IMG/VR virus record: IMGVR_UViG_3300024038_000010
Location: 1-38,654 of that record
Length of the DNA stretch: 38,654 nucleotides
From: a virus
Lineage: Duplodnaviria > Caudoviricetes
Strand: one strand, 5' to 3'
The notes under the pieces are model-generated. The model was not told where the DNA came from, did not search any database, and saw nothing but the letters and a program-made list of their open reading frames with translations. Shown piece by piece: positions 656 through 27,740 of this stretch. Made by a program: the position numbers and the translations under genes. Within the stretch, counting starts at the first letter, position 1; each line of letters begins with the position of its first letter.

Positions 656-799
656 TCACCTCAGAAATTGGTTGAACGCCATGCTCGCGATGGCGCAGAG
701 AATCAGCAGCCCAGAGATAGCTCCGACAATCCCGTATCCCAGGAGTCGGTCCGACGATTCGTCGTCTAGGTCGGTGGGCATGTGCTTATCCGTATCCAT
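656..799 (-). CDS. Small single-TM membrane protein (47 aa)
   Basis: ATG at 799 preceded by AGGAGA; MDTDKHMPTDLDDESSDRLLGYGIVGAISGLLILCAIASMAFNQFLR has an acidic N-terminus and one hydrophobic helix. Confidence 0.65.
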   Translation of the reverse strand: MDTDKHMPTDLDDESSDRLLGYGIVGAISGLLILCAIASMAFNQFLR

Positions 800-878: not shown

Positions 879-1373
879 CTAGATATGCGCCCAGAGCTCG
901 CGATGGACGATGCGCCAGACGGTATCGCCGGAGACGCCGTACTTCCTTCCAAGGGCTGCTGCGCTTCGCCCAGGCGTGCGCTTGGCGTGCATAGCGCGAA
1001 TTTCGAGGACCTCAGCTTCAGTCAGTTTGCTGCGCGGATGATTCGACCCAACAGGCGCGGTGCCGTGACTGCGCTTATCGAATTCGTTCTCCGAGGCAGT
1101 CGATATGCGCAGGTTGGATGCCGCGTTGTCGGTTTTATTGCCGTTGATGTGGCATACGACCAGGCCATCCGGAATATCGCCAAGATGGGCCAGGGCAACA
1201 AGCCGGTGCACAAGGCGCCCGACACGCCGTCCGTCGTCCTGTGCCACCTTGACCTTCAGATAACCCTTGCGGTCTGGGAATGTTGAAACCAGCCGCTTTT
1301 CGCTGCGCACCAGGCCTGTGTTGCTGGCTGAGTACCGAGGGAACCCAGGTATAGGCTTCCATACAACGTCCAT
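879..1373 (-). CDS. HNH homing endonuclease (NUMOD4-like N-terminus, HNH, C-terminal HTH)
   Basis: WKPIPGFPRYSASNTGLVRS (NUMOD4-like), VHRLVA...VCHINGNKTDNAASNL (HNH), KLTEAEVLEIR (HTH-like). AGGAGG RBS before ATG 1373. Confidence 0.9.
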   Translation of the reverse strand: MDVVWKPIPGFPRYSASNTGLVRSEKRLVSTFPDRKGYLKVKVAQDDGRRVGRLVHRLVALAHLGDIPDGLVVCHINGNKTDNAASNLRISTASENEFDKRSHGTAPVGSNHPRSKLTEAEVLEIRAMHAKRTPGRSAAALGRKYGVSGDTVWRIVHRELWAHI

Positions 1374-1413
1374 GAAAATCCTCCTAGGCCCAGTGTGCAG
1401 GGCCATGGCATCG

Positions 1414-1428
1414 GCGGGCTACGCCCGC
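1414..1428 (-). promoter_or_regulatory. GC hairpin with GNA loop downstream of VR-like repeat 1 (putative DGR target-recognition hairpin)
   Basis: GCGGGC-GTA-GCCCGC on minus strand, 28 nt after the shared 99-bp core; no U-tract follows. Confidence 0.7.
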
Positions 1429-1434
1429 AAAGGG

Positions 1435-1848
1435 TTAAAGGGATGAAGCGATGATGCTGCGGACGGGACGAACCCGGAACTCGTCGTCGCGGAGCCAGAC
1501 GTCGACGCCGCCGTCCTCGAAATTCACCGCCCAGGCGCTGAGGGAGCCGTAGGGCTTGTTCGTCCAGTACCAGTCGTCCTTATCGAACAGGTCCGGCACG
1601 TTGATGTAGGCCAGCATCATGTCTTTCTGGTCAGGGGCGTGCCAATCGCCATGGCCGTTGACCTCACCGCGTCCGGCCACGGCCGAATCGAGGTCCTTGA
1701 ATTCGACGTCTACCAGGTCGAATTCAGAGCCGCCGGGAATGATGATGTGATGGGTCACGCCGTCGATGAGGCGCGACCCGATGAAGACGCCGCCCTGCTC
1801 GGGCCATTCCTGCCCGATGGAGGGGGTGCTGGTTGCGGTTGCGGTCAT
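1435..1848 (-). CDS. DUF1566/Lcl-type C-type-lectin-fold protein 1 (putative DGR target)
   Basis: QGGVFIG, GHGDWHAP, YWT...AWAVNFEDG...FRVRPVR motifs; AGGAGA RBS. Confidence 0.85.
   Translation of the reverse strand: MTATATSTPSIGQEWPEQGGVFIGSRLIDGVTHHIIIPGGSEFDLVDVEFKDLDSAVAGRGEVNGHGDWHAPDQKDMMLAYINVPDLFDKDDWYWTNKPYGSLSAWAVNFEDGGVDVWLRDDEFRVRPVRSIIASSL
1457..1555 (-). repeat. VR-like repeat copy 1 (99 bp)
   Basis: Aligns without gaps to 1904-2002 and 6567-6665; differences only at codon positions 1-2. Confidence 0.9.
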
Positions 1849-1859
1849 GCAAGTCTCCT

Positions 1860-1874
1860 GCGGGCTGCGCCCGC
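1860..1874 (-). promoter_or_regulatory. GC hairpin with GNA loop downstream of VR-like repeat 2
   Basis: GCGGGC-GCA-GCCCGC on minus strand, 29 nt after the core. Confidence 0.7.
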
Positions 1875-1890
1875 TTAAGGGGTAAATGGA

Positions 1891-2463
1891 TCAATAGGTG
1901 AATCTGCGGACGGGACGAACCCGGAACTCGTTGAGGCGGGTCCAGTTGGAGACGCCGCCGCCCTCGAAACGCACCGCCCAGGCGTAGAAGGAGCCGTAGG
2001 GCGTCGAGGTCCAATAGACCTCCTTCTTGAACAGGTGGAGCAGATTTGCCGCGATGATCTGCAGTTCCCGCTTGGAAGGCAGATAAAAGTCGGCGTGGCC
2101 GTCTGCGCTATAGGCCTTGGCGGCACGCGCTGCCGGGTGGCTGCCGGACCGGCCGAGCAGGGTATTGGTGTTCACCAGGCCATCCCAGCTACTTGCTTGA
2201 ATCTCGCCTTCGTCCGGGCTCCACAAATACTTGCCCTGCAGGTCATCCTCGGCCACGACCAGTCCGTAGACAGTGCCGTCGTCGCCTAGGATGTCGCCAG
2301 CGTAGATACCGCCTTGGCCGGGCAGCGAAGCGCCGATCAACGCGGGGCGGGACAGTCGGGAGGGTGTGGAACTCAGGCGCTCGAGGAGCGCGTCAAGCGC
2401 GATGCGTGCAGGAACCTCCAGGCGCGAACCGCCGCCCAGATCCAACTGGATCGTGTCGTTCAT
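1891..2463 (-). CDS. DUF1566/Lcl-type C-type-lectin-fold protein 2 (putative DGR target)
   Basis: QGGIYAG, DGHADFYLPSKREL, YWTSTPY...AWAVRFEGG...FRVRPVRRF. Confidence 0.9.
   Translation of the reverse strand: MNDTIQLDLGGGSRLEVPARIALDALLERLSSTPSRLSRPALIGASLPGQGGIYAGDILGDDGTVYGLVVAEDDLQGKYLWSPDEGEIQASSWDGLVNTNTLLGRSGSHPAARAAKAYSADGHADFYLPSKRELQIIAANLLHLFKKEVYWTSTPYGSFYAWAVRFEGGGVSNWTRLNEFRVRPVRRFTY
1904..2002 (-). repeat. VR-like repeat copy 2 (99 bp)
   Basis: See copy 1; identity with copy 3 extends a further 11 bp (to 2013 and 6676). Confidence 0.9.
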
Positions 2464-2511
2464 GGTTTTCCTTGGGAGTTTGCCGCGGATGCGGCGGTGG
2501 AACTTACCGTG

Positions 2512-2550
2512 GGGCGCAGGAAGCCTTTCGGCGTTCGAGTTCCTGCGCCC
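2512..2550. other. 11-bp inverted repeat immediately after the ssb stop codon
   Basis: GGGCGCAGGAA...TTCCTGCGCCC; no U-tract, so possibly an mRNA processing or stability hairpin. Confidence 0.5.
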
Positions 2551-3018
2551 TCAATCAAAAGGGATGTCGTCGTCCATGTCCGCGAGATTGGCGGCAGGGG
2601 TAGATTGCTGCTGGGCTGCCCGTTGTTGAGGGGCCGGGCGTTGCGCTGGAGCAGTGCGCTGCTGGCGCGGCGCGTCGTCGTGGCCACCGCTCTCTTCGCG
2701 GCCGCCCAGCATCTGCATCTGGTCAGCGACGATTTCGGTGCTGTAGCGGTCAGCACCGGTGTCCTTATCGGACCATTTCCGTGTCGTCATCCGGCCGGAA
2801 ACGAAGATCTGCTTGCCCTTGGTCAGGTACTCGCCGCAGATCTCACCCAACTTCCCGAAGGCAACGACGCGGACCCATTCCACGCCCTCCTTCTCCTTGG
2901 TTTTCCAGCCCACAGCCAAGGAAAAGTTGCAGACTGCTGCACCATCTGGCGAATACCGCACGTCGGGGTCTTTGCCAAGTCTGCCAATGAATTCGCAGCG
3001 GTTAAGGTCATTGCTCAT
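2551..3018 (-). CDS. ssb: Single-stranded DNA-binding protein
   Basis: LNRCEFIGRLGKDPDVRY OB-fold start, YSTEIVADQMQML, acidic tail DDDIPFD. Confidence 0.97.
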   Translation of the reverse strand: MSNDLNRCEFIGRLGKDPDVRYSPDGAAVCNFSLAVGWKTKEKEGVEWVRVVAFGKLGEICGEYLTKGKQIFVSGRMTTRKWSDKDTGADRYSTEIVADQMQMLGGREESGGHDDAPRQQRTAPAQRPAPQQRAAQQQSTPAANLADMDDDIPFD

Positions 3019-3470
3019 ACGTATTTCCAGTTCTTCCGTTTGATGATGGCGCTCATGGTCTGCTGAGGCACCCCGAAGGCTTCTGCCAAGTCCTTTTGCC
3101 GCACAGCTAGATCATTGAGCCGTCGTATAGCTCGCACTTCGCGCTCCGTCATGCGGGTGTGGCCTTGGCGCTCACCGCGTGGCGAGCGGCCTTTGCTGAC
3201 CATGTCCAGCGAGTTCTCTTTGGCGGTACCAGCAAAGAGGTGCCTGGGGTTGCAGCAGGGCGGGTTGTCGCACGAGTGGCAAATCAACAGACCTGGCGGA
3301 ATGTCCCCGCGGCTTAGGATGAATGCCACTCGGTGTGCGATCTTGGTAAGTCCGGGCGGAGAGCGGAACTCTCCATACCCCTTTGGGTGCCTTGCGCCCT
3401 TCCAAAGCCAACACTCATCCGGCCCCGCCCGGGCTACCTTCGACCAGAATCTTTCTGCCCAATCCGCCAT
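3015..3470 (-). CDS. HNH homing endonuclease (Zn-binding) with C-terminal HTH
   Basis: RFWSKV...ECWLWKG...AHRVA...ICHSCDNPPCCNPRHL; overlaps both neighbours. Confidence 0.9.
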   Translation of the reverse strand: MADWAERFWSKVARAGPDECWLWKGARHPKGYGEFRSPPGLTKIAHRVAFILSRGDIPPGLLICHSCDNPPCCNPRHLFAGTAKENSLDMVSKGRSPRGERQGHTRMTEREVRAIRRLNDLAVRQKDLAEAFGVPQQTMSAIIKRKNWKYV

Positions 3471-4105
3471 TACGCCGCCTCCTTCTTGAGCAGGTTTTCG
3501 TACTTGCTGACCATGCGTTCAAACGCCATCAGATCGCCCTCCAGTTCTTCGATGGCATCATCATCGCGCTCGATCCGGATGATCGTGAGATGCCGGCCGA
3601 TAGGTTCCAGGTCGGGCGCCCACAAAACGAGGTCTACCCATTTGCGCCCTAGCAACCACATTGCGCCGTTGCATTGGTCGGTGTACGCGCTGATATCGCC
3701 ATCGACTACGGCCGTGAACAGAGTGTCGGACGAAACCATCGTTTTGATTTCGATGATTCCGTCGTCGTCGACGAGGCCGTCCACGCTCACGCCAAACAGG
3801 CCGTCGCCCGTGGTAATGAATCCCGCCTCATCGACAAAGTTGCCCGTCTTCGCTTCGTAGGCAGCCCGCGCAAAAGGCTCCTGCTCCGTGCCGGTACGCA
3901 TAGCTGCGTTCGCGAAGACTTCCGGTGCCCGGCCGCCGACACGTTCGCGCGCAACATCCATCGCGTACTTGAGGCAGTCTTTCGACGGCCCCCCGGCTTT
4001 CAGCCTGGACCGTGCGTCCTTGAAACGGCTGCCGGTTATGACGCCGCGGCGGGAGTCCAGCCATTCCTGAGACCCTTGCGGGGCGGTGTGGATGATCGGG
4101 TCCAT
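3470..4105 (-). CDS. YqaJ/lambda-exonuclease family recombination nuclease
   Basis: QGSQEWLDSRRGVITGS, GTEQEPFARAAYE, SVDGLV...IIEIKT, QCNGAMW motifs. Confidence 0.93.
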   Translation of the reverse strand: MDPIIHTAPQGSQEWLDSRRGVITGSRFKDARSRLKAGGPSKDCLKYAMDVARERVGGRAPEVFANAAMRTGTEQEPFARAAYEAKTGNFVDEAGFITTGDGLFGVSVDGLVDDDGIIEIKTMVSSDTLFTAVVDGDISAYTDQCNGAMWLLGRKWVDLVLWAPDLEPIGRHLTIIRIERDDDAIEELEGDLMAFERMVSKYENLLKKEAA

Positions 4106-4884
4106 TACTTGGCCTCCTGCTTGAGCATGTTGCGTTTGTCGCCATAGGCCTGCTTGAAAGCTGCAAAGGCCGCGAGGTTATTGGTCTGTTCGATTGCTTT
4201 GCAGCCCGCCTGCCAGATGTCAGCAGCCGCTTCCAGAGTTTCGGCCTGCGCAAGCTTGCTGATCCATTCGTCCCGCAGCTCGAAAGCTGCGTCATCAGCG
4301 CCGGCGCCGTCGTTGTCGTCGCCCTTTTCGGAGATGCCGCAGACCGCCTTCAGCGTGTGGCGCTCAAGGTAAGTGGTCGTCGACGCGATCGCCTGGATCG
4401 TGTTCTTCTTCCCGCTTTCGTCTGGCGGCGCGCTCAAAGTGACGGACTTCTCGTGGCCCAAGCGGTGCACCAACGTGCAGGTGACGTGGATCCGGCCATC
4501 TTTCTGTTCGACGTCCCAGCCCCAGGCGAAGCCGTGCTTGGACAGGGCAGGGCCCACGGCCGTGACCACATCGGACAGCTCGGCGTGCTTGTAGCTGGTG
4601 GTGCCGCGGTCGGTCTTGAATTCGACCTGCTTGCGCTTGATGATCTCCACCGCCTCGGACTTGAAGGCGGCGAAGGCGTCGTTGAATGCCTTGCGCGCCT
4701 CGCCTGCTTCCCACTCGCGCTGGATCGCCATCATTTCCTTGATCTGATCCAGGGGGATGCCCTGTTGAACTGCGGCCATCATCATGCCCATGGGCGAATT
4801 GGCGGCGAGAACGGCCACTTGGCCGGCGGCCGGCTCGGGTTGCATGGCCACTGTGCGGGCCGGGGCGTCGATAACTTCGGTCAT
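4105..4884 (-). CDS. erf: ERF-family single-strand annealing protein
   Basis: YKHAELSDV...LSKHG...VTCTLVHRLGH...IQAIASTTTYLERHTLKAVCGI...DDNDG pattern, next to the exonuclease. Confidence 0.9.
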   Translation of the reverse strand: MTEVIDAPARTVAMQPEPAAGQVAVLAANSPMGMMMAAVQQGIPLDQIKEMMAIQREWEAGEARKAFNDAFAAFKSEAVEIIKRKQVEFKTDRGTTSYKHAELSDVVTAVGPALSKHGFAWGWDVEQKDGRIHVTCTLVHRLGHEKSVTLSAPPDESGKKNTIQAIASTTTYLERHTLKAVCGISEKGDDNDGAGADDAAFELRDEWISKLAQAETLEAAADIWQAGCKAIEQTNNLAAFAAFKQAYGDKRNMLKQEAK

Positions 4885-4891
4885 GTCGTCC

Positions 4892-5989
4892 TCAGTAAGT
4901 GATTCGGATGTTGGGGATCATGCCCTTGGCGATCAGCGTGATCGCTTGCTTGGCGCAGTCCTCGGTCATGCCGCCGGCGACGAACGCATCCAGGGCGGCG
5001 CGGTTGACCTTGCCCTTGTGGGCCTTGTCGGCTTCACGGCGGGCGGCTTCGGCTTCCTCTGCTGCCTTGGCGTCCGCCTGGCGCTTGATTTCGGCTTGGC
5101 GCGCGTCCTCGGCTGCCTGGATTCGGTCCCGCTCGGCCTGCTCAGCCGCCAGGCGCTCACGCTCCGCCGCGGCCGCGCGGTCGATCTCCGCCTGTCGTTC
5201 GGCGGCGATGCGGCGCTGATCGGCAAGTTCGGCTTCCAGGCGGGCCTTGTCCGCAGCTTCTCGGGCTTCGGCTTCACGGTGCGCGGCCGCGTCGCGCTCG
5301 GCCAGGGCTGCAGCCGCTGCCTCACGTCGGACCATTTCCTCTGCTTCGCGGGCGATGCGCTCTTCGCGGTCCTTCTGCGCGCGCTCTGCCTCGGCGGCGC
5401 GCAGGCGGGCCAGTTCGGCCTGTTCCGCGTCGTATTTCACGCGGGCGGCGAGGCGATCGCGCAGGTTGGTCAACGCTTTGTCTTTCGTTCGAGCGGCCTC
5501 CGGTTCGAACTCTTCCCACTCGGGACCGATGGCGATGGCCTCGACCGCTGAGATGGCGGCTCGAATCGATTCCGCCGGCCCGCCACAGTCGATCACCAAA
5601 GCGTCGATGCCCTCAATGGCGTCCTTGTGGCGCTGCACGCGGTCGTTCTCGGCCTGCTCCCAGGCAGTGAGCGGCGCCCGGACCTCTTCCTTCAGGGCAT
5701 CCAGTAGATCCCGCATGCGCTTGCGCTCCGCGTCGATCTTCTTGGGCACATCCTTCAGCTTGGCGACCAACTCCTTGCCTATATCGTCCAGCGCGACTTT
5801 GGCCTTTCCGACCTTATGGGCCCGGCTGGCGATCGCGTCGCGTCCCTTCTTGGTAGTCAGGTCCGGCGCTTGGCCGGTCACTTCGGCGCGGATCTTTTCA
5901 AGCCAGGGATCCAGACCGCCGGGCTTGGAGTAGACGTCCAGCGCGGTTTCCGCCGGCGGCAGCTCGGCAAGTTGGGTTGCTTCGGTCAT
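4892..5989 (-). CDS. Conserved coiled-coil phage early protein (often mis-annotated as TolA-like)
   Basis: PDLTTKKGRDAIASRAHKV N-terminal motif, long Ala/Glu/Arg coiled coil, C-terminal IAKGMIPNIRITY; typical position upstream of a recombinase. Confidence 0.8.
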   Translation of the reverse strand: MTEATQLAELPPAETALDVYSKPGGLDPWLEKIRAEVTGQAPDLTTKKGRDAIASRAHKVGKAKVALDDIGKELVAKLKDVPKKIDAERKRMRDLLDALKEEVRAPLTAWEQAENDRVQRHKDAIEGIDALVIDCGGPAESIRAAISAVEAIAIGPEWEEFEPEAARTKDKALTNLRDRLAARVKYDAEQAELARLRAAEAERAQKDREERIAREAEEMVRREAAAAALAERDAAAHREAEAREAADKARLEAELADQRRIAAERQAEIDRAAAAERERLAAEQAERDRIQAAEDARQAEIKRQADAKAAEEAEAARREADKAHKGKVNRAALDAFVAGGMTEDCAKQAITLIAKGMIPNIRITY

Positions 5990-5990
5990 G

Positions 5991-6182
5991 TCAGTCCTTC
6001 GCGGCGACTGCTGTCTTGCCGCAGCCTTCGCAGGCGGTGAGGGTGGATTGGGCTTGTTCGTCGCGCTGCTGGACTTCGCCGTAGCCGAATACTAGGGCGG
6101 TCAGCACGCCGGCGACGGTGAAAGCGGACAGGCGGGCGTCGCGGTCGCGCAGAAGGTGCAGGATGGAGTTAAGAAGGATCAA
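5991..6182 (-). CDS. Small membrane protein with C-terminal CxxC (~63 aa; start uncertain)
   Basis: TTG start overlapping the upstream TGA with a GGAG RBS; one hydrophobic segment; CEGC near the C-terminus. Confidence 0.55.
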   Translation of the reverse strand: MILLNSILHLLRDRDARLSAFTVAGVLTALVFGYGEVQQRDEQAQSTLTACEGCGKTAVAAKD

Positions 6183-6505
6183 TCGCCGCTCCATTGCGGC
6201 CAGTAGCCGCGGACATGTTGCATAGTTCGGTGGTGGGCGACGTGGGCAATAGCCAGCGTCATCTGGTCGCGGCACTCGCGGCCGAGAATCCCTGAGGCGG
6301 CGAGTTCGAGGATCTTTTCCTGCTGATCCGCGTTGCCAGCGATGAACGCCAGCATCTCCGCATCCGGATCCGGGAATTCCTGCTCAAACGCCTCTATGAC
6401 AGCCTGCCGGTGGGTGAACAGATCACCCTCAATTCCCTTGACCACCTCCCCATACTTCTCATCGTAGATTTCCCGGGGAGGGCTGAAGCTGAATCGACTG
6501 CCCAT
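6179..6505 (-). CDS. Hypothetical protein (108 aa)
   Basis: AGGAGG RBS, co-oriented in the operon. Confidence 0.7.
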   Translation of the reverse strand: MGSRFSFSPPREIYDEKYGEVVKGIEGDLFTHRQAVIEAFEQEFPDPDAEMLAFIAGNADQQEKILELAASGILGRECRDQMTLAIAHVAHHRTMQHVRGYWPQWSGD

Positions 6506-6521
6506 GTCGCCCTCCTGCAGC

Positions 6522-6538
6522 GCCAGCCTGCGGCTGGC
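6522..6538 (-). promoter_or_regulatory. GC hairpin with GNA loop downstream of VR-like repeat 3
   Basis: GCCAGCC-GCA-GGCTGGC on minus strand, 28 nt after the core; stem sequence differs from copies 1 and 2 but structure, loop type and position are kept. Confidence 0.7.
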
Positions 6539-6553
6539 AAAGGGTTGAATTGA

Positions 6554-7006
6554 TTAAGGGATAAATCTGCGGACGGGACGAACCCGGAACTCGTGGCCGC
6601 GGGTCCAGCGGAAGACGCTGCCGTCCTCGAAACCCACCGCCCAGGCGTTGCCGGAGCCGTAGGGCGTCGAGGTCCACACATCGCCAACGTCTTCGCTGAA
6701 CCCTTCGGCTGCCAACAGCAGCAGCGCTTCGCGATGGGAGGGCAGGTAGAAATCGGTGTGGCCGTCGGCGGAGTATTCGGACGCGGCCAGGGCGGCAGGA
6801 TGGCCACCGCGCTCGAGCAGCTTGCGGGTGTTCTCGGCACCGTCCAGGTCGGAATAGCCTTCCAGCTCATCGCCGTAGCCGCCAAATTCGAACTCGCCGT
6901 CCAGCAGCTCTGCCGCGGCGAACAGGTGACGCCCCTGCGCGGTCTTGCCGATGTAGATCCCGCCCTGGCCCTCGGCGTACTGGCCAACTATGAATGCATT
7001 GCTCAT
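6554..7006 (-). CDS. DUF1566/Lcl-type C-type-lectin-fold protein 3 (putative remote DGR target)
   Basis: QGGIYIG, DGHTDFYLPSHREA, WTSTPY...AWAVGFEDG...FRVRPVRRF. Confidence 0.9.
   Translation of the reverse strand: MSNAFIVGQYAEGQGGIYIGKTAQGRHLFAAAELLDGEFEFGGYGDELEGYSDLDGAENTRKLLERGGHPAALAASEYSADGHTDFYLPSHREALLLLAAEGFSEDVGDVWTSTPYGSGNAWAVGFEDGSVFRWTRGHEFRVRPVRRFIP
6567..6665 (-). repeat. VR-like repeat copy 3 (99 bp)
   Basis: See copy 1; about 4.6 kb from the other two copies. Confidence 0.9.
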
Positions 7007-7842: not shown

Positions 7843-7958
7843 GTGCTCGCCTTCCCCCATCCGACTTCGTGGCGGTACGTCTCCCTCTTGAGGCGATGCC
7901 CTGACTGCTGGCTGAGGGTCCGTGGGGGTCTTGCTGCGCTGTTTGATAGCGTGAAGTC

Positions 7959-8001
7959 ACTTTAGCTAAAGCGAAAGTTAAAGTCAAGCAAATGCGAAAG
8001 C
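7959..8001 (-). promoter_or_regulatory. pL promoter with two OL operators
   Basis: TTGACT (7987-7982)-17 bp-TAAAGT (7964-7959); 20-bp operators at 7959-7978 (ACTTTAGC-TAAA-GCGAAAGT) and 7982-8001 match the OR motif. Confidence 0.85.
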
Positions 8002-10454: not shown

Positions 10455-11138
10455 TTAAAAGTCACGGCTGCACCAAACTTTCAGCACGCGCCCGAACACT
10501 TCAAAGTCCATTCCAGGCGAAATGTCCCAGGAGTCATACTCTTTGTTCTCCGATTTGGCACGGAGGATCATCCCCGCTTCAGTTGGGATGCGTTGGAGCC
10601 TCTTGATGAACCCCTCTTGGCCGACGCGAAAAAAATAGACAGCATCGAACTCAACCGTAACGATTCCCACATCAATGATCAGGGGGTCTCCCGGGTTGTA
10701 CATGGGCTGCATAGAGTCGCCAAAGCCAGTGACGATGGCTAGGTTGGTCGCTGCCGAGTAGCTTTTTACGTTCTTCTGAAGCCACTCAGGACTGACTTTC
10801 AAACTTTCGATGATCCCAGGCTGGTCGCGAAGCTCAAGTCCGTCCCCCATCTTCCCCCCAGTATCAAACCTAGGAATAGAAAGCCGCTCTTCTGACCGTT
10901 TTGTTTCGGCCAACGTGTCCATCTCTGGTTGATCGAGTGCGCCAACCGGGAGACCGCATTTGGATTCGATCTTTCGAGCAGAGGACTCTCCCATGTTCCG
11001 CTCGCCACCAAGCCATTGGCCCGTCTGTGACAGGGAAATCCCTGTGCGATGTTTAAAGGCGGTGTGCGACCCTCCGAATTGCTCCGTTAGAAGTATCGCG
11101 AGGTTGCGGCGGCGAAGGGCGGCAATAGGGTTCTGCAT
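10455..11138 (-). CDS. cI: CI-like repressor (HTH plus S24 autopeptidase)
   Basis: N-terminal HTH, GDSMQP catalytic Ser and FIKRL catalytic Lys; divergent from cro. Confidence 0.95.
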   Translation of the reverse strand: MQNPIAALRRRNLAILLTEQFGGSHTAFKHRTGISLSQTGQWLGGERNMGESSARKIESKCGLPVGALDQPEMDTLAETKRSEERLSIPRFDTGGKMGDGLELRDQPGIIESLKVSPEWLQKNVKSYSAATNLAIVTGFGDSMQPMYNPGDPLIIDVGIVTVEFDAVYFFRVGQEGFIKRLQRIPTEAGMILRAKSENKEYDSWDISPGMDFEVFGRVLKVWCSRDF

Positions 11139-11147
11139 GGCTCCAAA

Positions 11148-11205
11148 ACTTTAGCATCAGCTAATTTCGCATAGGCTTGAATTTAACTTTCGCAAGTGCT
11201 AAAGT
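11148..11205. promoter_or_regulatory. OR operators with pR (and pRM-like promoter)
   Basis: Three 20-bp imperfect palindromes ACTTTMGC-N4-GCKAAAGT at 11148-11167, 11163-11182 and 11186-11205. pR = TTGAAT (11177)-17 bp-TAAAGT (11200). Leftward TAAAGT at 11153-11148 with a poor -35. Confidence 0.85.
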
Positions 11206-11211
11206 GATGGC

Positions 11212-11490
11212 ATGGAAAAGCGAAAACTTGAAGCCCTAGCGGCTTACACGAAGGCGAAACGAGGTCGGTTCACCGAGCTGGCGAAGCATCTCGACGTGTC
11301 AGGTTCGTACCTATCTCAAATGATTTCGGGCGAACGCCCGATGCCGGTCGTTTACGCGGCAGAGGTTGAGAAGTTCACTCGTGGCGAAGTTCCCAAAGAG
11401 TCGTGCAGACCCATAGACGGCTTGGCTATTTGGCAGCCCGCCCGGGGCAGAAGGCGCGTGAAGAGCGATGCCGCCTTGCCGGTCGGCTAG
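11212..11490 (+). CDS. cro: Cro-like HTH regulator (YdaS/Cro family)
   Basis: ELAKHLDVSGSYLSQMISGERP HTH, EKFTRGEV; divergent from cI. Confidence 0.88.
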   Translation: MEKRKLEALAAYTKAKRGRFTELAKHLDVSGSYLSQMISGERPMPVVYAAEVEKFTRGEVPKESCRPIDGLAIWQPARGRRRVKSDAALPVG

Positions 11491-11577
11491 TAGTGCGTGC
11501 TTGTTGTTTTTGAGTTGTTCCATGCGGTGAATCTTAATTGTGCGCCGCGCCAAAGAATATGTTCGGAGTCTGTCCCC

Positions 11578-12015
11578 ATGAACACAAAAGATGCTGCGTA
11601 CCACACCGTCCACGACTATGCGGGCGGTAGTGAATCGCTGGGGCCGCGTGTCGGCATATCTGCTGCGGTGCTGCGCAACAAGGTCAACCCGAACAACGAG
11701 ACCCACCATCTGACATTCTCCGAGGCACAGCGAATCGTCGATATGACGGACGACGATCGGATGCTCCGGGCATGGGCACACGCCCGAGGATTCTTGCTGG
11801 TTAAGGCCCCGGAAGGTTCGGATTGCGACATGTCCGTCTTGGAGGCGGTTGTTGAGACCGGCGTTGCTCACGGTCAGTGGATGCAGGCAATCCATTCAGC
11901 CCTGGCGGACGGCAAGGTGGACACGAGCGAAGTGCAGGCGATCAAGGCAGCTAAGCGTGCGTTGCAAACGGCTGCCGCGACAGCCACCCAGCGTGTTGAA
12001 GGCATGGTGGGCTAA
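11578..12015 (+). CDS. cII: Phage regulatory protein CII (CP76-like)
   Basis: DAAYHTVHDYAGGSESLGPRVGISAAVLRNKVNPN...HHLT and ALADGKVD motifs; GGAG RBS before ATG 11578. Confidence 0.85.
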   Translation: MNTKDAAYHTVHDYAGGSESLGPRVGISAAVLRNKVNPNNETHHLTFSEAQRIVDMTDDDRMLRAWAHARGFLLVKAPEGSDCDMSVLEAVVETGVAHGQWMQAIHSALADGKVDTSEVQAIKAAKRALQTAAATATQRVEGMVG

Positions 12016-12425
12016 TGGAACGCCAGGTGTTCATCCTCTCCCACCCGCTAGCGCGCCGCAATGCGGCTTACGCCTGCGCAAACGCTCCCGACGGCTACCG
12101 GGTAGAGATCAAGGAGCGCACTCGCACCCTTGATCAGAACGATTTGCTGTGGTCGATCCTGACGGATTTGTCCAAGCAGGTGGATTGGTCGATTAATGGC
12201 AAGTTGGAAAAGCTATCGCCGGAAGATTGGAAAGACATCCTGACGGCCAGCCTGGATCAAGAGCACCGTATCGCTGAAGGTATCCGCGGCGGGTTCGTCA
12301 TGCTCGGGCGCCGGACTAGCAAGATGGGTGTTCGCAAGATGAGCGAACTCATCAACTTCGCGCACTCAGTGGGTGATGAGAAGGGCGTCCAGTGGTCGCC
12401 CACCTCCATCGGGAGGGGAGCATGA
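12015..12425 (+). CDS. ninB: NinB/Orf family recombination protein
   Basis: RTLDQNDLLWSILTDLSKQVDW...EDWKDI...GRRTSKM motifs. Confidence 0.9.
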   Translation: MERQVFILSHPLARRNAAYACANAPDGYRVEIKERTRTLDQNDLLWSILTDLSKQVDWSINGKLEKLSPEDWKDILTASLDQEHRIAEGIRGGFVMLGRRTSKMGVRKMSELINFAHSVGDEKGVQWSPTSIGRGA

Positions 12426-12862
12426 CCTGGAACTCCACCCTCAAGCGAAGTACACCCTTTCGATCGCGTGGCGTCATTGCGCGCCGCAGTCAGCCCATGA
12501 AGTCAAAGGGCATGAAAGGCTCGTCGGTGTCGACCGCTCAGAAAACATTCCATGACCAGCTCGCGAGCCGCATTGGCTGCGTTGCGTGCCGTATGGACGG
12601 AATCTTCAACGACTACGTGTCGATCCACCACATCGACGGCCGGACGAAGCCCGACGCACATTGGAAGGTGTTGCCGCTCTGCGGAAGTCACCACCAAGAC
12701 GACGGCTTGGCTATCGCCGTCCACCCGCACAAGGCCATGTTTGAGACGCGCTATGGCAAGCAGATGGATCTGCTGGTGTGGTGCATCGAGCAGATTCAGT
12801 CGCAGGGCAGCGGCGTGCCTGACGGCGCACTTGCCGCCGCTGGGATGTTGGAGGTTGTGTGA
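12422..12862 (+). CDS. ref: Ref-family (recombination enhancement) HNH-like nuclease
   Basis: GCVAC...IHHIDGRTKPDAHWKVLPLCGSHH; ATGA overlap with ninB. Confidence 0.82.
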   Translation: MTWNSTLKRSTPFRSRGVIARRSQPMKSKGMKGSSVSTAQKTFHDQLASRIGCVACRMDGIFNDYVSIHHIDGRTKPDAHWKVLPLCGSHHQDDGLAIAVHPHKAMFETRYGKQMDLLVWCIEQIQSQGSGVPDGALAAAGMLEVV

Positions 12863-13782
12863 ACGCGATGCCGAAGTCTCCGCAGGTCGAGGACGGCCAC
12901 ATCAAGATCGCCAATGAGCTGTTCGAGGCGATCATGGCTTTTCCGTTCAAGCAGACCACGCTGCGTGTTCTGTTAGCGGTCCTGCGCAAGACGTATGGCT
13001 ACGGCAAGAAGGAAGACGACCTTTCTGCCTCTCAAATCGGAATGCTGCTGGGCGACATGAAACGCCAGCACATCACTACGGCGTTGAATGAATTGGCTGC
13101 CATGGGCGTTATCAGCAAGCGCCCGGGAAAGTACGGATCGTTAGTCGGAATAAACAAGGATTATTCGCGCTGGATCGCTAGTCCGAAATCCGGACAGGTG
13201 AACGAATCTCGGACTAGTCCGAATCTTGGACAGGTGAACGAAATCCGTGCATCTGCTAGTCCGAAATCCGGACAGGTGAACGAATCTCGGACTAGTCCGA
13301 ATCTTGGACAGGTGAACGAAATCCGTGCATCTGCTAGTCCGAAATCCGGACAGGTCGATAGTCCGAATCTCGGACACACAAAAGACAACCTTCCAAAAGA
13401 CAACCAACAAAATGAATCTGCTAACGCAGATTCCTGCGGCGAGCAAAGCGTCAAGCTCGCACTTGTCCCGACTCCGCCTCCCGTCATTGCTCTTCCGGTC
13501 AAAGACGGCTCCGAGTTCGAGATCACTGAAGACTTGGTGGCTGAGTGGAGTGCTGCCTATCCCGGAGTGGATGTACGCGGCGAGCTCGCAAAGGCTCGTG
13601 TCTGGCTGCGTGCTTCCCCTCAAAACCTGAAAACTCGCCGTGGCATGGGCAAATTCGTGGTGGGTTGGCTTAGCCGATCTGCCAAGCCCTCGTCAGGCTT
13701 TTCTTACGCGAGGAAATCAGCGCATGGAAACTTCAGCTTGCAGGACTACCACGCCGGAGTTGCAGCAGATGGCACTTTCTAG
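12859..13782 (+). CDS. Phage replication initiator (lambda O-like N-terminal domain)
   Basis: EDGHIKIANELFEAI...RKTYGYGKKED...SQI; internal iteron repeats; followed by a DnaC-like gene. Confidence 0.9.
   Translation: MNAMPKSPQVEDGHIKIANELFEAIMAFPFKQTTLRVLLAVLRKTYGYGKKEDDLSASQIGMLLGDMKRQHITTALNELAAMGVISKRPGKYGSLVGINKDYSRWIASPKSGQVNESRTSPNLGQVNEIRASASPKSGQVNESRTSPNLGQVNEIRASASPKSGQVDSPNLGHTKDNLPKDNQQNESANADSCGEQSVKLALVPTPPPVIALPVKDGSEFEITEDLVAEWSAAYPGVDVRGELAKARVWLRASPQNLKTRRGMGKFVVGWLSRSAKPSSGFSYARKSAHGNFSLQDYHAGVAADGTF
13177..13420 (+). repeat. Replication origin: iteron array with 78-bp tandem duplication and A-rich flank
   Basis: 78-bp unit starts at 13177, 13255 and (partial) 13333. It is built from ~18-bp imperfect palindromes TAGTCCGAA(ATC/TCT)YGGACA and followed by the A-rich stretch CAAAAGACAACC x2. 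Confidence 0.85.
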
Positions 13783-14521
13783 CCTGACTCCGGCCAAGGG
13801 CCACTGCGAGAAGCATGGCGACTTCGACGGCTACACGCTTGGTGGTGGTCCGCACTGCCCGACATGCGCCGAGGAGCAGATAGAGCGGGATCGCGCTGCT
13901 CAGCAAGAGGCCACGATGCGCGAGTATCGGCAACGTCGAGCCGACTACCTGCTGGGCAAGGCTGCGATCCCGCCCCGGTTCGCTGATCGCCGACTGTCGA
14001 ACTTCGTGTCCCATGCTGCAGGCCCTGCCAAAGCACTGCAGGTCGCGCAGCAGTTTGCTGACGAGTTCGAGGAATGTCAGAAATCCGGACGCAGCTTGAT
14101 CTTCTGCGGAGGGGTTGGTGCCGGGAAAACGCACCTCGCCGTAGGAATCTGCCACGAGATCATCGCCAAGGACAAAGTAGCCGTGTTCACGTCCGTTCTC
14201 TCAGCTATCCGTTCGATCAAAGAGACTTTTCGGAAGGGGTCTGAGCAGACTGAGGCCGAAGCCATCCGGGCGTTGGTGCAGCCCGACCTTCTGGTCCTCG
14301 ATGAGGTTGGCGTCCAGTTCGGCTCCGAGACGGAAAAGATGTACCTGTTCGAGATCATCAATGGTCGATATGAGGCCATGAAGCCGACCATTCTCCTAAG
14401 CAACCTGGCCAAGGACGCGTTGACCGAGTTTATCGGTGAGCGCGTGATTGACCGCCTACGTGAGGGTGGCGGCCGAATGGTGGTGTTCGATTGGCCCTCG
14501 TACCGGAGGGTTGCGCAATGA
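13769..14521 (+). CDS. DnaC/IstB-like ATPase (helicase loader)
   Basis: CEKHG...CPTC Zn site, Walker A GGVGAGKT, Walker B LLVLDEVG, GERVIDRL; start uncertain (13724 also possible). Confidence 0.93.
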   Translation: MALSSLTPAKGHCEKHGDFDGYTLGGGPHCPTCAEEQIERDRAAQQEATMREYRQRRADYLLGKAAIPPRFADRRLSNFVSHAAGPAKALQVAQQFADEFEECQKSGRSLIFCGGVGAGKTHLAVGICHEIIAKDKVAVFTSVLSAIRSIKETFRKGSEQTEAEAIRALVQPDLLVLDEVGVQFGSETEKMYLFEIINGRYEAMKPTILLSNLAKDALTEFIGERVIDRLREGGGRMVVFDWPSYRRVAQ

Positions 14522-17025: not shown

Positions 17026-17103
17026 GAGTACGAAATGACGAAGCCCCTGACCGTTAGCGCGGTGCAGGGGCTTCTTGCTTTGAACCAACGATAGGAGTTG
17101 GCC

Positions 17104-17913
17104 TTGGCTGAGTTGAATTATAGGTGTCTGGGTTGCGCGGCTGCAATCTTTCCTAATCTGACCAAGACGGGAAAGGTGAGCAACCACCCCCGTAAGTACT
17201 GCGGTGCTGAGTGCAAGCCCAAGCGTGAATGGCAGCGCACACCGCATAAGCCGAAGTTGGTTGTGTGCCAGCACTGCTTCACTGAGAAGTACAGGCGAGT
17301 GCGTGGTGGCGCGTCGGATGCTGGGAAGTACTGCTCTCGTGAGTGCTCTTTCGCCAGGTCGTCTTTGGTCTCCCGTGAGGTGATGGCCATTAAGGACCTG
17401 GGCGCGAAAGCGAGAAAGCAGGCAAGGGCAGCAGCCGCAGCTAAGGCGAAGAGACAGGCATGGCTTGCCACCCGCCATCGCGTATGCCCGGAATGTGGCA
17501 ACGGCTTTGTGGCTGAGCTACGTCAATCGGTTTGCGGCGACGAATGCAAGAAGGCAAGAGCAAGAAAGGCGAGAGCCAGATACGAGCAGACCGATTCCTG
17601 GAAGAGGGCGCGTCGGGCGGCTAAGAAGCGATACAAGACGGTGCGCAGGGCGAGGGTTGCGATCCAAGCTGAGACCATCGACCCGATCAAAGTGTTTGAA
17701 AGGGATAGGTGGAAGTGTCACCTGTGTGGCGAGAAGACGCCGCGAGGATTGCGAGGGACAAGTCAGATGCAAGCACCTGAGCTTGACCATATCGTGACCC
17801 TTGCAGATGGCGGCTCGCACACATGGGGCAATGTGGCCTGTGCATGCAGGCGCTGCAACCTAGCCAAAGGCGCCCGCTCCATGGGTCAGCTAGGTCTGGG
17901 GCTGGGCGCATGA
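17104..17913 (+). CDS. HNH endonuclease with multiple N-terminal Cys/Zn-finger modules (homing-type)
   Basis: Repeated CxxC...YC-x3-C modules, then ERDRWKCHLCG...ELDHIV...GGSH..GNVACACRRCNLAKG; TTG start (17098 or 17104) after AGGAG. Confidence 0.85.
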   Translation: MAELNYRCLGCAAAIFPNLTKTGKVSNHPRKYCGAECKPKREWQRTPHKPKLVVCQHCFTEKYRRVRGGASDAGKYCSRECSFARSSLVSREVMAIKDLGAKARKQARAAAAAKAKRQAWLATRHRVCPECGNGFVAELRQSVCGDECKKARARKARARYEQTDSWKRARRAAKKRYKTVRRARVAIQAETIDPIKVFERDRWKCHLCGEKTPRGLRGTSQMQAPELDHIVTLADGGSHTWGNVACACRRCNLAKGARSMGQLGLGLGA

Positions 17914-25350: not shown

Positions 25351-25842
25351 TTGGAGTTTGTGTTGCTGGCGCCGGGTCCTAGCATGAGCCGCGACCTGGC
25401 GGAGTCCATGCGCGGTCAGCGAGTCGGCGTGGTCAGCAACGTGTTTGAACTGGCACCTTGGGCGGACTTCCTGGCGGCAAACGACCGGGCCTGGTGGCGT
25501 GCCTACCCGGAAGCGCTCAAGTTCGCTGGGCATAGGTTTTCCAGCAGTGAGTTCCCGGGTGTCGAACGATGCCGACCGGGCAATACGCAGTGGGCGAGTG
25601 GTGTTCTGGCGCTACAGGTGGCTGTGAACCTTGGGGCGAAGCGGATCCGGCTGTACGGATTCGACATGCACGGCTCGCATTACTTCGGCGACTACACGAA
25701 CGGACTGGTCAACACGAAGCCCTATCGCCGTGCTGTTCACCTGCAGCAGTTCCGAGATTGGGCTCGGACGAACCCGGGGGTCCAGGTGGTCAACTGCACG
25801 CCTGGTTCGGCGTTGGACTGCTTCCCGATGGAGGCAGTTTGA
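25351..25842 (+). CDS. Putative glycosyltransferase-like protein (Maf/DUF115/sialyltransferase-like Rossmann fold)
   Basis: LLAPGPS...V(S)N...D..WW...SGVLALQVAVNLGAKRIRLYGFDM...VVNCT; start (TTG 25351) uncertain. Confidence 0.65.
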   Translation: MEFVLLAPGPSMSRDLAESMRGQRVGVVSNVFELAPWADFLAANDRAWWRAYPEALKFAGHRFSSSEFPGVERCRPGNTQWASGVLALQVAVNLGAKRIRLYGFDMHGSHYFGDYTNGLVNTKPYRRAVHLQQFRDWARTNPGVQVVNCTPGSALDCFPMEAV

Positions 25843-26684
25843 TAGTTCGGGGGATGAAGGGGCTGGGCGACAACATCTACCAGCGCGCCTTTGTGAAGCG
25901 GTTGCAAGCCCCGGTTTACCTAGAGACACCCTGGCCGGAGCTGTACGAGGACTTGCGAGGCGTCAAGTTTGTTAAGGCCGAAACGCCGCTGCGGACGCAA
26001 TCCAAGAACATGGCCCTGCAGGATCCGGGGCGATGGGTGGCTGCACCGAGAGAGTCTGTGGTGGCGGTTCAGTACGGCACGGCTGGAATCGTGACGGGCA
26101 TGCGGCGGTGCTTCGGTGTAGCCCCCGGCGAGTTTGACTTGCCGGACTTTGGCCCGTCTCCGGTGCCCGGCCGGTACATGGTGGTGCGCCCGGCAACTGT
26201 GCGGGCTGAGTGGGTAGCGGAGGCCCGTAACCCGCTGACCATGTACATCGCTGAGGCGGCTGAGATGGCCCGAGCGGCGGGCTACCGGGTGGTGTCGGTG
26301 GCGGACCTGGAGCCTGGCAAAGAATGGGCCGTTGGGACGTTGCCGCCAGCGGACGAGGTGTACCACGCCGGGGAGTTCAGCGTCCGGCAGTTGATGGGCC
26401 TGGTGCAGCACGCCGCGGCGGTGATTGGCGGGATCGGTTGGATTCTCCCGGCCGCCATAGCAATGAAAGTTCCCGCTTGGGTGATATGCGGTGGGCAGGG
26501 CGGATTCAACGCCCCGGAACTGATTACAGACGAAAAGTACATGGACCTGAGCCGGATTCGGTTCGCGGTCCCGGACAACCTTTGCCGCTGCCGGCAGAGA
26601 CAACACAACTGCGACAAGCGAATCAAGAACCATGCAAGTGACTTTGCCGACTGGCTGCGAAGACTCCCTGATTTGGTGGCCTGA
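25839..26684 (+). CDS. Putative GT-B glycosyltransferase (GT9/heptosyltransferase-like)
   Basis: GLGDNI N-terminal motif; SVRQLMGLVQHAAAVIGGIGWILPAAIAMKVPAWVICGG resembles the GT9 C-terminal motif; TTG start overlapping the upstream stop. Confidence 0.7.
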   Translation: MIVRGMKGLGDNIYQRAFVKRLQAPVYLETPWPELYEDLRGVKFVKAETPLRTQSKNMALQDPGRWVAAPRESVVAVQYGTAGIVTGMRRCFGVAPGEFDLPDFGPSPVPGRYMVVRPATVRAEWVAEARNPLTMYIAEAAEMARAAGYRVVSVADLEPGKEWAVGTLPPADEVYHAGEFSVRQLMGLVQHAAAVIGGIGWILPAAIAMKVPAWVICGGQGGFNAPELITDEKYMDLSRIRFAVPDNLCRCRQRQHNCDKRIKNHASDFADWLRRLPDLVA

Positions 26685-27246
26685 GCGTGGGATGGGGTTC
26701 CATCCCCGGCCCGCTATGGACTACACGACCAGCTATTGGGAAGAATTCCGCCAGCGCGATGCTTCGCCTATGGGGGAACTGCTGACCGAAGCGCGCTTGG
26801 CGCTCGTTCGTCGGCACTATTCCGGCCAGGTCGTGGACATCGGGATTGGTGGCGGCCGATTCGTGGAGTACGCGGCCGCGCAGGGCTACGACGTAAATGC
26901 TGAGGCCAACGAGTGGCTGCGCCAACGCGACGCCTATTGCGACCCTTACAGTCGCCCGGTAGATGCGATCACGTGCTGGGATAGCCTGGAGCACATTCCA
27001 GACCCTGCCGCGCTGCTAGCGCAGGTGCGCGAATGGGCTTTCATCGCCATCCCGATCTTCGAAGAGGGCGATGGCGTCCCGGCCAGCCGTCACTACAAAC
27101 CGGGTGAGCATATTTGGTACTTCAGCCACCGCGGCTTGGTCGACTGGATGAAGGCGCATGGCTTTGTCTGCATGGAACACAACGACGCCGAGACTGAACT
27201 CGGCCGCGAAGGCATCCGTAGCTATGCGTTTATGAGGGTCAAGTGA
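26632..27246 (+). CDS. Class I SAM-dependent methyltransferase
   Basis: VVDIGIGGG motif I, YDVN, DAITCWDSLEHIPDP, EHIWYFS. Confidence 0.85.
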   Translation: MQVTLPTGCEDSLIWWPERGMGFHPRPAMDYTTSYWEEFRQRDASPMGELLTEARLALVRRHYSGQVVDIGIGGGRFVEYAAAQGYDVNAEANEWLRQRDAYCDPYSRPVDAITCWDSLEHIPDPAALLAQVREWAFIAIPIFEEGDGVPASRHYKPGEHIWYFSHRGLVDWMKAHGFVCMEHNDAETELGREGIRSYAFMRVK

Positions 27247-27740
27247 AAGTTGAGGTCAAGCTCTCCGGCGTCGACGGTGTTCTGGATTTGTTGAAGAGCT
27301 TGCCACCCGAAGTCGTTTCGAAGCGTGGCGGCCCGGTGAAGCTTGCGTTGGCGAAAGGTGCCCGGCTTATTCGTGACGCGGCGCGCCAGAATCTGCGTGC
27401 AGCTATCGCGCAGAACGGGGAAGAATCCACGGGGCTGCTGCTTGAGAACGTGATTTCCAGCCGAGGTAAGGCGCCAGCAGACGGTAAGGGCGAGCGTTAT
27501 TTGGTGCGAGTGCGTCGCAAGACCTACCCGGGCCGAAAGCCAGAGAAGGGTGGCGGGGTGCCCAATGTGCGGAAGTCGGCGCAGCTAATGGAGTACGGGT
27601 CGGAACACCAACCGGCGCGGCCCTGGTTGCGGCCGGCTGTGATCCAGAACGGGGAGCGCGCCATCAGCGTCATCACCGAAGACCTGAAGAAGCGTATCGA
27701 CAAGACGGTATCTGATCTGGCCAAGAAGGGGTTGAGGTAA
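27243..27740 (+). CDS. HK97 gp10-like tail-completion protein
   Basis: TGLLLENV, MEYGSEHQPARPWLRPA. Confidence 0.88.
   Translation: MKVEVKLSGVDGVLDLLKSLPPEVVSKRGGPVKLALAKGARLIRDAARQNLRAAIAQNGEESTGLLLENVISSRGKAPADGKGERYLVRVRRKTYPGRKPEKGGGVPNVRKSAQLMEYGSEHQPARPWLRPAVIQNGERAISVITEDLKKRIDKTVSDLAKKGLR

What the first reader, a model, noticed from the sequence alone, without database searches (positions are those of the whole stretch)
1435..7006. Three early-operon DUF1566 (CLec-fold) genes carry DGR-type variable repeats
Seen: 1457-1555, 1904-2002 and 6567-6665 align without gaps over 99 bp (32 full codons). All 17 variable columns fall in 10 codons and only at positions 1-2: CTC/TTC/GGC, AGC/TAC/AAC, AAT/CGT/GGT, GAC/GGC/GAC, GGC/GGC/AGC, GAC/TCC/TTC, GTC/AAC/CGC, CTC/ACC/ACC, GAC/CTC/GGC, GAC/AAC/CAC. 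Every third position is invariant, and 12 of the 17 columns still show an A in at least one copy. Internal control: in the conserved ADGHxDFYLPSxRE block just upstream, genes 2 and 3 differ at six synonymous third positions in 14 codons. So the paralogues are old but their 3' ends are homogenised and non-synonymously diversified. Established: DGRs (Bordetella BPP-1 paradigm) copy an AAY-rich template repeat with A-to-N mutagenesis into the C-terminal variable repeat of CLec-fold proteins. Inference: one template, approximately CCC TAC GGC TCC AAC AAC GCC TGG GCG GTG AAT TTC GAG RAC GGC ARC GTC AAC AAC TGG AAC CGC AAC AAC GAG TTC CGG GTT CGT CCC GTC CGC AG, has written into all three genes.
Basis: partly seen in the sequence, partly recalled or inferred. 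Interest (0 to 1): 0.92.

Follow-up and report, generated by a model that had tools for sequence, protein, structure and literature searches.

The report
Endonuclease replaces phage hypermutation engine
Three small lectin-fold genes of this Achromobacter-type prophage carry the adenine-only mutation pattern of a diversity-generating retroelement, but the retroelement's engine is missing and an HNH endonuclease gene sits exactly in its place, a swap that recurs in Pseudomonas phages and likely reflects a selfish gene that evicts the engine and freezes the genes' last variants.

Summary
Three DUF1566/CLec genes share a 99-bp repeat with 17 variable columns. Related Achromobacter prophages carry the predicted template (TR), avd and reverse transcriptase right behind gene 1. 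Against that TR the window's repeats differ at 41 of 72 adenine positions and 0 of 219 others. This multi-target DGR layout is already catalogued (Wu 2018).

A NUMOD4-HNH gene (879-1373) fills the slot from base 17 of avd to the RT stop.

The same swap recurs: a second Achromobacter-type provirus, cultured Pseudomonas phages Medea1 and Aurca01 versus DGR-bearing Cruim01, and two further Pseudomonas junction types. Identical HNH modules (0 of 540 differences) adjoin repeats that differ at 15-17 template adenines, so the module likely moves repeatedly into freshly diversified phages.

Best reading: genuine but orphaned, likely frozen DGR targets, displaced by a likely homing endonuclease. Cleavage and homing are untested. 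Neutral mosaic recombination and in-trans rewriting remain rivals. The scan noted DGR-core-for-HNH swaps three times before on other DNA. My paper searches found no description.

The parts
1435..1848 (-). Target gene 1, 137 aa stand-alone CLec (Lcl_C/DUF1566) domain; adjacent to the former avd
   Evidence: model pLDDT 90; fold match Lcl C-terminal domain Z 14.7, rmsd 4.0, 122 aligned
1457..1555 (-). Variable repeat 1; 13 of 24 template adenines changed, 0 of 73 other bases
1414..1428 (-). GC-rich inverted repeat (6-bp stem, 3-nt loop) after VR1; likely DGR target hairpin
   Evidence: present in MFE and centroid; z -1.0, not significant on its own
1891..2463 (-). Target gene 2, 190 aa, CLec domain with N-terminal extension
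1904..2002 (-). Variable repeat 2; 14 of 24 template adenines changed, 0 of 73 others
1860..1874 (-). GC-rich inverted repeat after VR2
   Evidence: z -1.6
6554..7006 (-). Target gene 3, 150 aa, non-adjacent target about 4.7 kb upstream, beyond the Erf/YqaJ/SSB genes
6567..6665 (-). Variable repeat 3; 14 of 24 template adenines changed, 0 of 73 others
6522..6538 (-). GC-rich inverted repeat (7-bp stem) after VR3
   Evidence: z -0.8
1391..1406 (-). First 16 bases of avd; left junction of the replacement
   Evidence: identity with DGR-bearing relatives stops at 1391-1393
879..1373 (-). NUMOD4-HNH_3 endonuclease gene, 164 aa, with its own AGGAGG ribosome site at 1380-1385, in the slot of avd-TR-RT
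   Evidence: the upstream avd ATG is out of frame in the X5 contig, so the 1373 start is preferred
656..799 (-). Small hydrophobic ORF whose homologue follows the RT stop in several relatives; marks the right junction
   Evidence: read by eye from the sequences behind RT in L008, L010, L011, L012, L013

Best explanation
The three genes are genuine targets of one phage DGR template whose avd-TR-RT core has been replaced in this prophage by a free-standing NUMOD4-HNH endonuclease gene, so their variable tips are likely frozen, and the HNH gene likely spreads by homing into DGR-bearing sister phages. Shown: adenine-only differences to the relatives' TR; the CLec fold; the exact slot swap; the same swap in other phages, with near-identical HNH modules next to different variable repeats. 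Inferred: during co-infection or superinfection the HNH would cut a DGR-bearing genome in or near its core, and repair from the HNH genome would use the conserved 3' end of the repeat (or the avd start) and the DNA at or after the RT end as homology arms, deleting the core but keeping the recipient's newly diversified repeats. Inferred, weaker (about 0.4): the targets are small cytoplasmic binders made from the early leftward operon (no membrane segment, no cysteine; variable codons rich in Tyr, Asp, Ser, Gly, Asn) that would bind proteins inside the infected cell rather than a surface receptor.
For: DGR origin: 41 of 72 vs 0 of 219; in 12 DGR-bearing relatives 30 VRs differ from their own TR at 344 of 715 A and 5 of 2195 non-A positions; Avd (phrog_3206, E 5e-28) and RT (phrog_1423, E 4e-108) in L086. 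Slot swap. Second complete provirus L005/G003 has the same left junction and no RT match; a contig of run X5 shows the junction a third time; one contig of X1 spans 600-1930 unchanged (X1 may be the source, so not independent). Recent exchange: window gene 1 is closer to DGR-bearing L086 (16 of 294 bases, 7 of 98 third positions) than the window HNH is to the L005 HNH (45 of 528, 34 of 175); VR1 of window and L005 differ at 12 A sites and 0 other sites. HNH proteins 99% identical go with gene-1 scaffolds only 82-88% identical and 9-10 of 10 variable residues different (linkage inferred from equal contig lengths). Recurrence: Medea1 vs Cruim01, 96.7% over 5.1 kb, core replaced by a 164-aa NUMOD4-HNH. 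Medea1, Aurca01 and L231 share junction plus HNH with 0 of 540 differences, yet their abutting VRs differ at 15-17 TR adenines, the last change 24-25 bases from the junction, and L231 joins the module to a different target paralogue. L227 and L228: HNH 0 of 495 differences, VR 14. In those Pseudomonas types the sequence after the VR is replaced; in BPP-1 a downstream hairpin is needed for efficient retrohoming (PMC3240598, abstract). The 13 best of 64 loci found with the HNH alignment all have a target directly upstream, and 9 keep an RT tail downstream; 94 of 97 other HNH loci have no target within 3-4 kb. The Pseudomonas slot HNHs form one clade, 96/96. The window HNH matches a solved HNH homing endonuclease, 1u3e_M, E 5e-10.
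Against: No cleavage, target site or biased inheritance was tested. The Achromobacter HNH does not group with the Pseudomonas clade in the free tree (0% of 200 bootstrap trees; one clade is not rejected, p-AU 0.456). HNH genes are common filler in these phages (3 of the 55 window ORFs scanned), and the phage encodes Erf and YqaJ recombination proteins that could shuffle modules over short homologies without a nuclease. Cores are also lost without an HNH: phage U9 has two targets followed by unrelated genes; L001 and L100 hold a single target. The HNH allele is rare: 0 of 62 Achromobacter genomes, where 4 of 62 have TR plus VRs. All three window targets keep their downstream hairpins, so in-trans rewriting stays mechanically possible. 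The 13 slot loci include repeats of the same phage (L224=L005, L225=L207, L226=L208; L231, L232, L234 share one VR). The direction of exchange (HNH in, or core back in) is not fixed by these data.
Confidence: 0.6

Rival explanations
1. Passive filler: the core was lost (cost, or selection to lock in good variants), an HNH gene happens to fill the slot, and ordinary phage recombination over the conserved repeat end moves the allele between DGR-bearing backgrounds without the nuclease taking part.
For: HNH genes are frequent in these genomes; Erf and YqaJ genes lie next door; cores are also lost without HNH (U9); at least two HNH lineages plus an unrelated nuclease-like ORF in L264 fill such slots; the L230 HNH has a stop at codon 8.
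Against: Needs repeated crossovers inside 24-25 bases: five different VR haplotypes beside one junction among 7 P. syringae-type records. A whole HNH clade with three junction types stays in the same slot, while 94 of 97 other HNH loci have no target nearby.
Confidence: 0.25
2. In-trans service: the orphan targets are still rewritten by Avd, RT and TR RNA from a DGR-bearing prophage in the same cell, which would make the HNH phage a freeloader on another phage's DGR.
For: All three window VRs match current TRs with no non-A drift and keep hairpins; avd, TR and brt work in trans on a plasmid (PMC5758913 section 13).
Against: In L005 VR1 fits one TR type while VR2 and VR3 fit another, so they were not re-homogenised by one donor. 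L231, L232 and L234 keep an identical VR. The Pseudomonas junction types lose the sequence after the VR, yet show the same pattern.
Confidence: 0.12
3. No DGR: gene conversion among three paralogues plus diversifying selection, or an assembly artefact, made the pattern.
For: No TR or RT in the window.
Against: A matching A-rich template beside avd and RT exists at the same place in relatives, and all differences face adenines. The junction recurs in independent records.
Confidence: 0.02

Closest known systems
CLec2/DUF1566 DGRs with layout TG-TG-AVD-TR-RT plus one non-adjacent target: Burkholderia cenocepacia H111, B. thailandensis MSMB43, Pseudomonas sp. GM67; Ralstonia solanacearum CMR15 has one adjacent and two non-adjacent targets (PMC5758913, supplementary table rows seen); Burkholderia phage Magia (PMC7883833, passages)
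   Same: Short DUF1566 targets, C-terminal VR of about 90-100 bases, 24-30 template adenines, two adjacent targets and one a few kb upstream. 71 of 80 RT loci fetched here have two or more targets by a loose scan.
   Different: The window lacks avd, TR and RT; an HNH gene fills their slot. Achromobacter has 0 occurrences in that supplementary file.
Bordetella phage BPP-1 DGR (mtd-avd-TR-brt)
   Same: Adenine-specific TR-to-VR differences, CLec-fold target (Mtd Z 6.6, rmsd 3.4, 120 aligned), hairpin after VR.
   Different: Targets here are three small early-region proteins, not the tail receptor-binding protein; no VR copy lies in the tail genes; no engine in cis.
Free-standing phage homing endonucleases ('intronless homing': T4 seg and mob genes; HNH enzymes MobA, MobE, I-HmuI; PMC2988022, passages)
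   Same: Optional HNH gene at a fixed site among related phages; NUMOD4-HNH layout; match to 1u3e_M (the name I-HmuI for that entry is recalled).
   Different: The displaced allele is a complete retroelement core; cleavage site and mobility are not shown.

Membership tests
Diversity-generating retroelement (complete element) | VR differs from a TR almost only at TR adenines | tested here: met
   41 of 72 vs 0 of 219 against the TR of L086; TR taken from relatives
Diversity-generating retroelement (complete element) | TR present in the element | tested here: not met
   only three copies in the record, none A-rich; no RT-15 RNA
Diversity-generating retroelement (complete element) | DGR reverse transcriptase gene | tested here: not met
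   no RT motif in six frames and no Pfam RT hit; present in relatives. The record may be incomplete at its ends, but the slot itself is replaced.
Diversity-generating retroelement (complete element) | Accessory gene avd | tested here: not met
   only the first 16 bases remain
Diversity-generating retroelement (complete element) | Target with CLec fold and C-terminal VR | tested here: met
   Foldseek 8q4e_A E 3e-7; VIA Z 14.7 for Lcl C-terminal domain, TvpA 6.9, Mtd 6.6; only gene 1 was folded
Diversity-generating retroelement (complete element) | IMH and hairpin downstream of VR | tested here: inconclusive
   inverted repeats follow all three VRs, z -0.8 to -1.6 against shuffles; VR and TR diverge at the 3' end as expected
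Diversity-generating retroelement (complete element) | Ongoing mutagenic retrohoming | not testable with these tools
   only assembled contigs were available
Free-standing HNH homing endonuclease | HNH nuclease domain with DNA-binding modules | tested here: met
   HNH_3 E 2e-16, NUMOD4 E 8e-7; His75, Asn87 and Asn96 are invariant among 12 homologues; 1u3e_M E 5e-10
Free-standing HNH homing endonuclease | Optional presence at a fixed site among related genomes | tested here: met
Free-standing HNH homing endonuclease | Signs of recent lateral spread or co-conversion | tested here: inconclusive
   identical modules beside different VRs and paralogues fit homing but also recombination
Free-standing HNH homing endonuclease | Cleaves the allele that lacks it and is inherited in excess | not testable with these tools
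   needs biochemistry and mixed infection

The most novel reading that the evidence does not exclude
DGR cores are a recurrent prey of specialised HNH homing endonucleases. These cut DGR-bearing sister phages, evict avd-TR-RT and keep the recipient's newly mutated targets: a parasite of a retroelement that acts as a contagious off-switch for hypermutation and explains orphan DGR targets in proteobacterial prophages. Cultured phages Medea1, Aurca01 and Cruim01 allow a direct test.
Probability: 0.45. Interest if true: 0.82.

Novelty: new variant of a known kind. Interest (0 to 1): 0.64.

Why it matters
Genome surveys find DGRs through the RT and TR, so orphaned targets such as these would be missed, and how DGRs are lost is little studied. 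If HNH enzymes home into DGR cores, DGR frequency in phage populations is set partly by a conflict between two mobile elements, not only by the benefit of diversity. The swap also gives natural pairs with and without the engine (window vs L086; Medea1 and Aurca01 vs Cruim01), which makes the open question of what these small early-region CLec proteins bind, and whether their diversification pays, testable in cultured phages.

Tried and rejected
1. TR or RT elsewhere in the record: none. RT search of G001-G003 found 0 of 3 (no positive control in that call; the same query found Cruim01).
2. A trans donor in the possible source run: X1 contigs do not cover most of L086's avd, TR and RT at 80% likeness, apart from a 56-base piece of a more distant RT, and show no other letters at the VR positions listed. 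Contigs drop rare variants and a hole proves nothing, so this is not used as evidence.
3. HNH allele in 62 Achromobacter species genomes: 0. The junction pattern gave 1 viral record and, in metagenomes, only a record of the window's own length.
4. One search reported no target near any of 81 HNH loci. That was a false negative for L127 caused by a narrow profile; it was redone with a broader profile.
5. The Avd identity came from a wrong reading frame and is discarded.
6. One origin for all slot HNHs: neither shown nor rejected. L230 fell out of the tree (7 residues); the context of P0124 itself is unknown and that of P0122 is inferred.
7. L093 was left out of the pooled TR/VR count because its TR carries VR-like bases (13 non-A mismatches in 3 VRs); L086's frameshifted fourth VR was not counted.
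8. The longer 879-1406 ORF as an Avd-HNH fusion: rejected, the frame is not kept in X5.
9. Hairpin stability is not above shuffles.
10. Paper searches. One search (DGR, HNH endonuclease, replaced, reverse transcriptase, template repeat) gave 0 papers; one search gave 11 papers, seen as listings only, none on this by title or abstract start. The library lacks most subscription papers.
Full report
Setting. The window is the whole record held, a lambdoid (pro)phage: repressor, Cro-like, CII, O and P-type genes at 10455-14521, head and tail genes to the right, and a leftward block with Erf, YqaJ and SSB genes that holds the three genes in question. That this block is the early leftward operon is inferred from gene order. 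Named homologues of gene 1 come mostly from Achromobacter.

Observation. Confirmed in every detail checked: 99-bp gap-free repeats, 17 variable columns in 10 codons at positions 1-2, 12 of 17 with an A, and 6 synonymous differences in the 14-codon control block. The model of gene 1 (pLDDT 90) matches the Legionella Lcl C-terminal domain (Foldseek E 3e-7; Z 14.7, rmsd 4.0, 122 aligned) and, more weakly, TvpA and Mtd. The three proteins have no hydrophobic segment above 1.05 (19-residue Kyte-Doolittle mean) and no cysteine, so they are likely cytoplasmic.

The template. Pattern and protein scans fetched related prophages. In them the order is gene 3 ... gene 2, gene 1, avd, RT-15 RNA, TR, RT. 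Against the TR of L004, L086 or L092 the window's VRs differ at 14, 14 and 13 of 24 adenines and at none of 73 other bases each. In 12 DGR-bearing relatives, 30 VRs differ from their own TR at 344 of 715 adenine and 5 of 2195 other positions; L093 and one frameshifted VR were left out. Lineage-specific non-A changes are shared by a TR and all its VRs, as expected when one template writes all targets. This layout is known: Wu et al. list TG-TG-AVD-TR-RT plus one non-adjacent DUF1566 target in Burkholderia and Pseudomonas (PMC5758913; passages, section 13 and matching supplementary rows seen), and 71 of 80 RT loci fetched here have two or more targets by a loose scan.

What the window lacks. No TR, RT motif or RT-15 RNA. 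Identity with DGR-bearing relatives stops 16 bases into avd; a 164-aa NUMOD4-HNH gene with its own ribosome site follows; behind it lies the small hydrophobic ORF that follows the RT stop in several relatives. About 1.75 kb of core is thus swapped for about 0.55 kb. The complete provirus L005/G003 has the same left junction and no RT match, and a contig of run X5 shows it again. Eleven closely related HNH sequences exist in two clusters, some named from Achromobacter.

Signs of recent, repeated exchange. Window gene 1 is nearer to DGR-bearing L086 (7 of 98 third positions differ) than the window HNH is to the L005 HNH (34 of 175). VR1 of window and L005 differ at 12 adenine sites and no other site; at the HNH's third-position rate, no difference in about 30 codons has probability near 0.002. 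So each VR met a working DGR after the two HNH alleles diverged.

The swap recurs. Cultured Pseudomonas phage Cruim01 has two targets, avd, TR and RT; Medea1 is 96.7% identical over the 5.1 kb upstream but has a 164-aa NUMOD4-HNH (37% identical to the window's) joined inside the 3' end of the VR, with an RT tail left behind. Aurca01 has the identical HNH gene. Among 7 records of this type, five VR haplotypes abut the same junction; Medea1, Aurca01 and L231 have 0 differences over 540 bases of junction and HNH but 15-17 differences at TR adenines, the last 24-25 bases from the junction. Two more junction types occur (L207/L208; L127, L227-L230). No DGR RT was found in the five such records searched whole, with Cruim01 as positive control. 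The 13 best of 64 loci found with an alignment of these HNHs all have a target directly upstream, some being repeats of one phage; 94 of 97 other HNH loci have none. The Pseudomonas enzymes form a clade (96/96); the Achromobacter enzyme is unplaced, and one common clade is not rejected (p-AU 0.456). The paper that describes Cruim01 and Aurca01 has no occurrence of 'reverse transcriptase' or 'retroelement' in its main text (PMC11256456, passages).

Mechanism. Shown: DGR-written targets, a precise core-for-HNH swap, and near-identical HNH modules on different VR haplotypes. Inferred: intronless homing as described for T4 seg and mob genes, where a free-standing nuclease cuts the sister genome and repair copies the nuclease gene across the region (PMC2988022, passages). 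The conserved VR end or avd start and the RT end would serve as arms, which keeps the recipient's VRs and removes its engine. After the swap the VRs are likely frozen: L231, L232 and L234 keep one VR, and L005 carries VRs of two TR types side by side.

Against. Nothing biochemical was tested. HNH genes are common in these phages, Erf-type recombination could shuffle modules alone, cores are also lost without an HNH (U9, L001, L100), and the allele was absent from 62 Achromobacter genomes of which 4 carry the full DGR. The window's targets keep their hairpins, so service in trans is possible (PMC5758913 section 13; PMC3240598 abstract). Target function is not shown; Roux et al. report that viral DGR targets are mostly structural and place the Legionella DGR in a clade with uncharacterised targets (10.1101/2020.04.01.020958, passages; its supplements were not seen and may list these elements).

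Novelty. The multi-target DGR is a new member of a catalogued kind (also Magia, PMC7883833, passages). The window itself fails the membership test for a complete DGR and is best called orphaned DGR targets. The recurrent replacement by HNH genes was not found in ten paper searches, which cover open-licence papers and bioRxiv only. This scan's own notes report a three-target Pseudomonas DGR and three HNH-for-core swaps on other DNA; they are unchecked AI notes. I had reached the swap from the window's own relatives before reading them, and they prompted the search that found the Pseudomonas cases.

Verdict. Observation confirmed, DGR reading supported but incomplete. New variant of a known kind; interest 0.64; homing as the mechanism about 0.6, and the bolder claim of specialised DGR-evicting enzymes about 0.45.

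Noticed in passing
L086 5541-6002 and 6018-6620: The closest DGR-bearing sister has four targets; the gene-3 homologue has a one-base insertion inside its VR that shifts the frame, and a contig of run X2 also shows an inserted base at the matching window position 6624.
   Followed up: partly
L093 10973-11070: The TR has lost six adenines and its 3' half matches VR2 of the same phage, as if a VR had been copied back into the template, or an assembly chimera.
   Followed up: no
L264 1-1842: A gutted DGR of another type: target and whole avd kept, part of the TR and most of the RT replaced by a 206-aa nuclease-like ORF with no Pfam hit, RT tail left.
   Followed up: partly
L230 about 2990-3015: The slot HNH has a stop at codon 8, a decayed copy.
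   Followed up: no
L124 3260-4890 (phage vB_Pae_U9): Two DUF1566-type targets with VRs but no avd, TR, RT or HNH behind them.
   Followed up: partly
L001 9164-9633; L100 about 1470-2040: Single orphan targets in records with no TR match.
   Followed up: partly
L094 5272-6020: Gene 1 appears tandemly duplicated at the contig end, the first copy ending in the gene-2 tail.
   Followed up: no
window 7957-7999 and 11165-11207: 43-base inverted repeat flanking the immunity region, likely left and right operator/promoter regions.
   Followed up: no
window 13177-13395: Five 36-42-base-spaced repeats inside the O-type replication gene, likely origin iterons.
   Followed up: no
window 25569-27740: A 371-aa ORF of unknown function (phrog_6804) and a methyltransferase-domain ORF sit among the head-tail joining genes.
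   Followed up: no
window 3015-3470 and 17098-17913: Two further HNH-domain genes; the first is distant from the slot HNH in the tree.
   Followed up: partly
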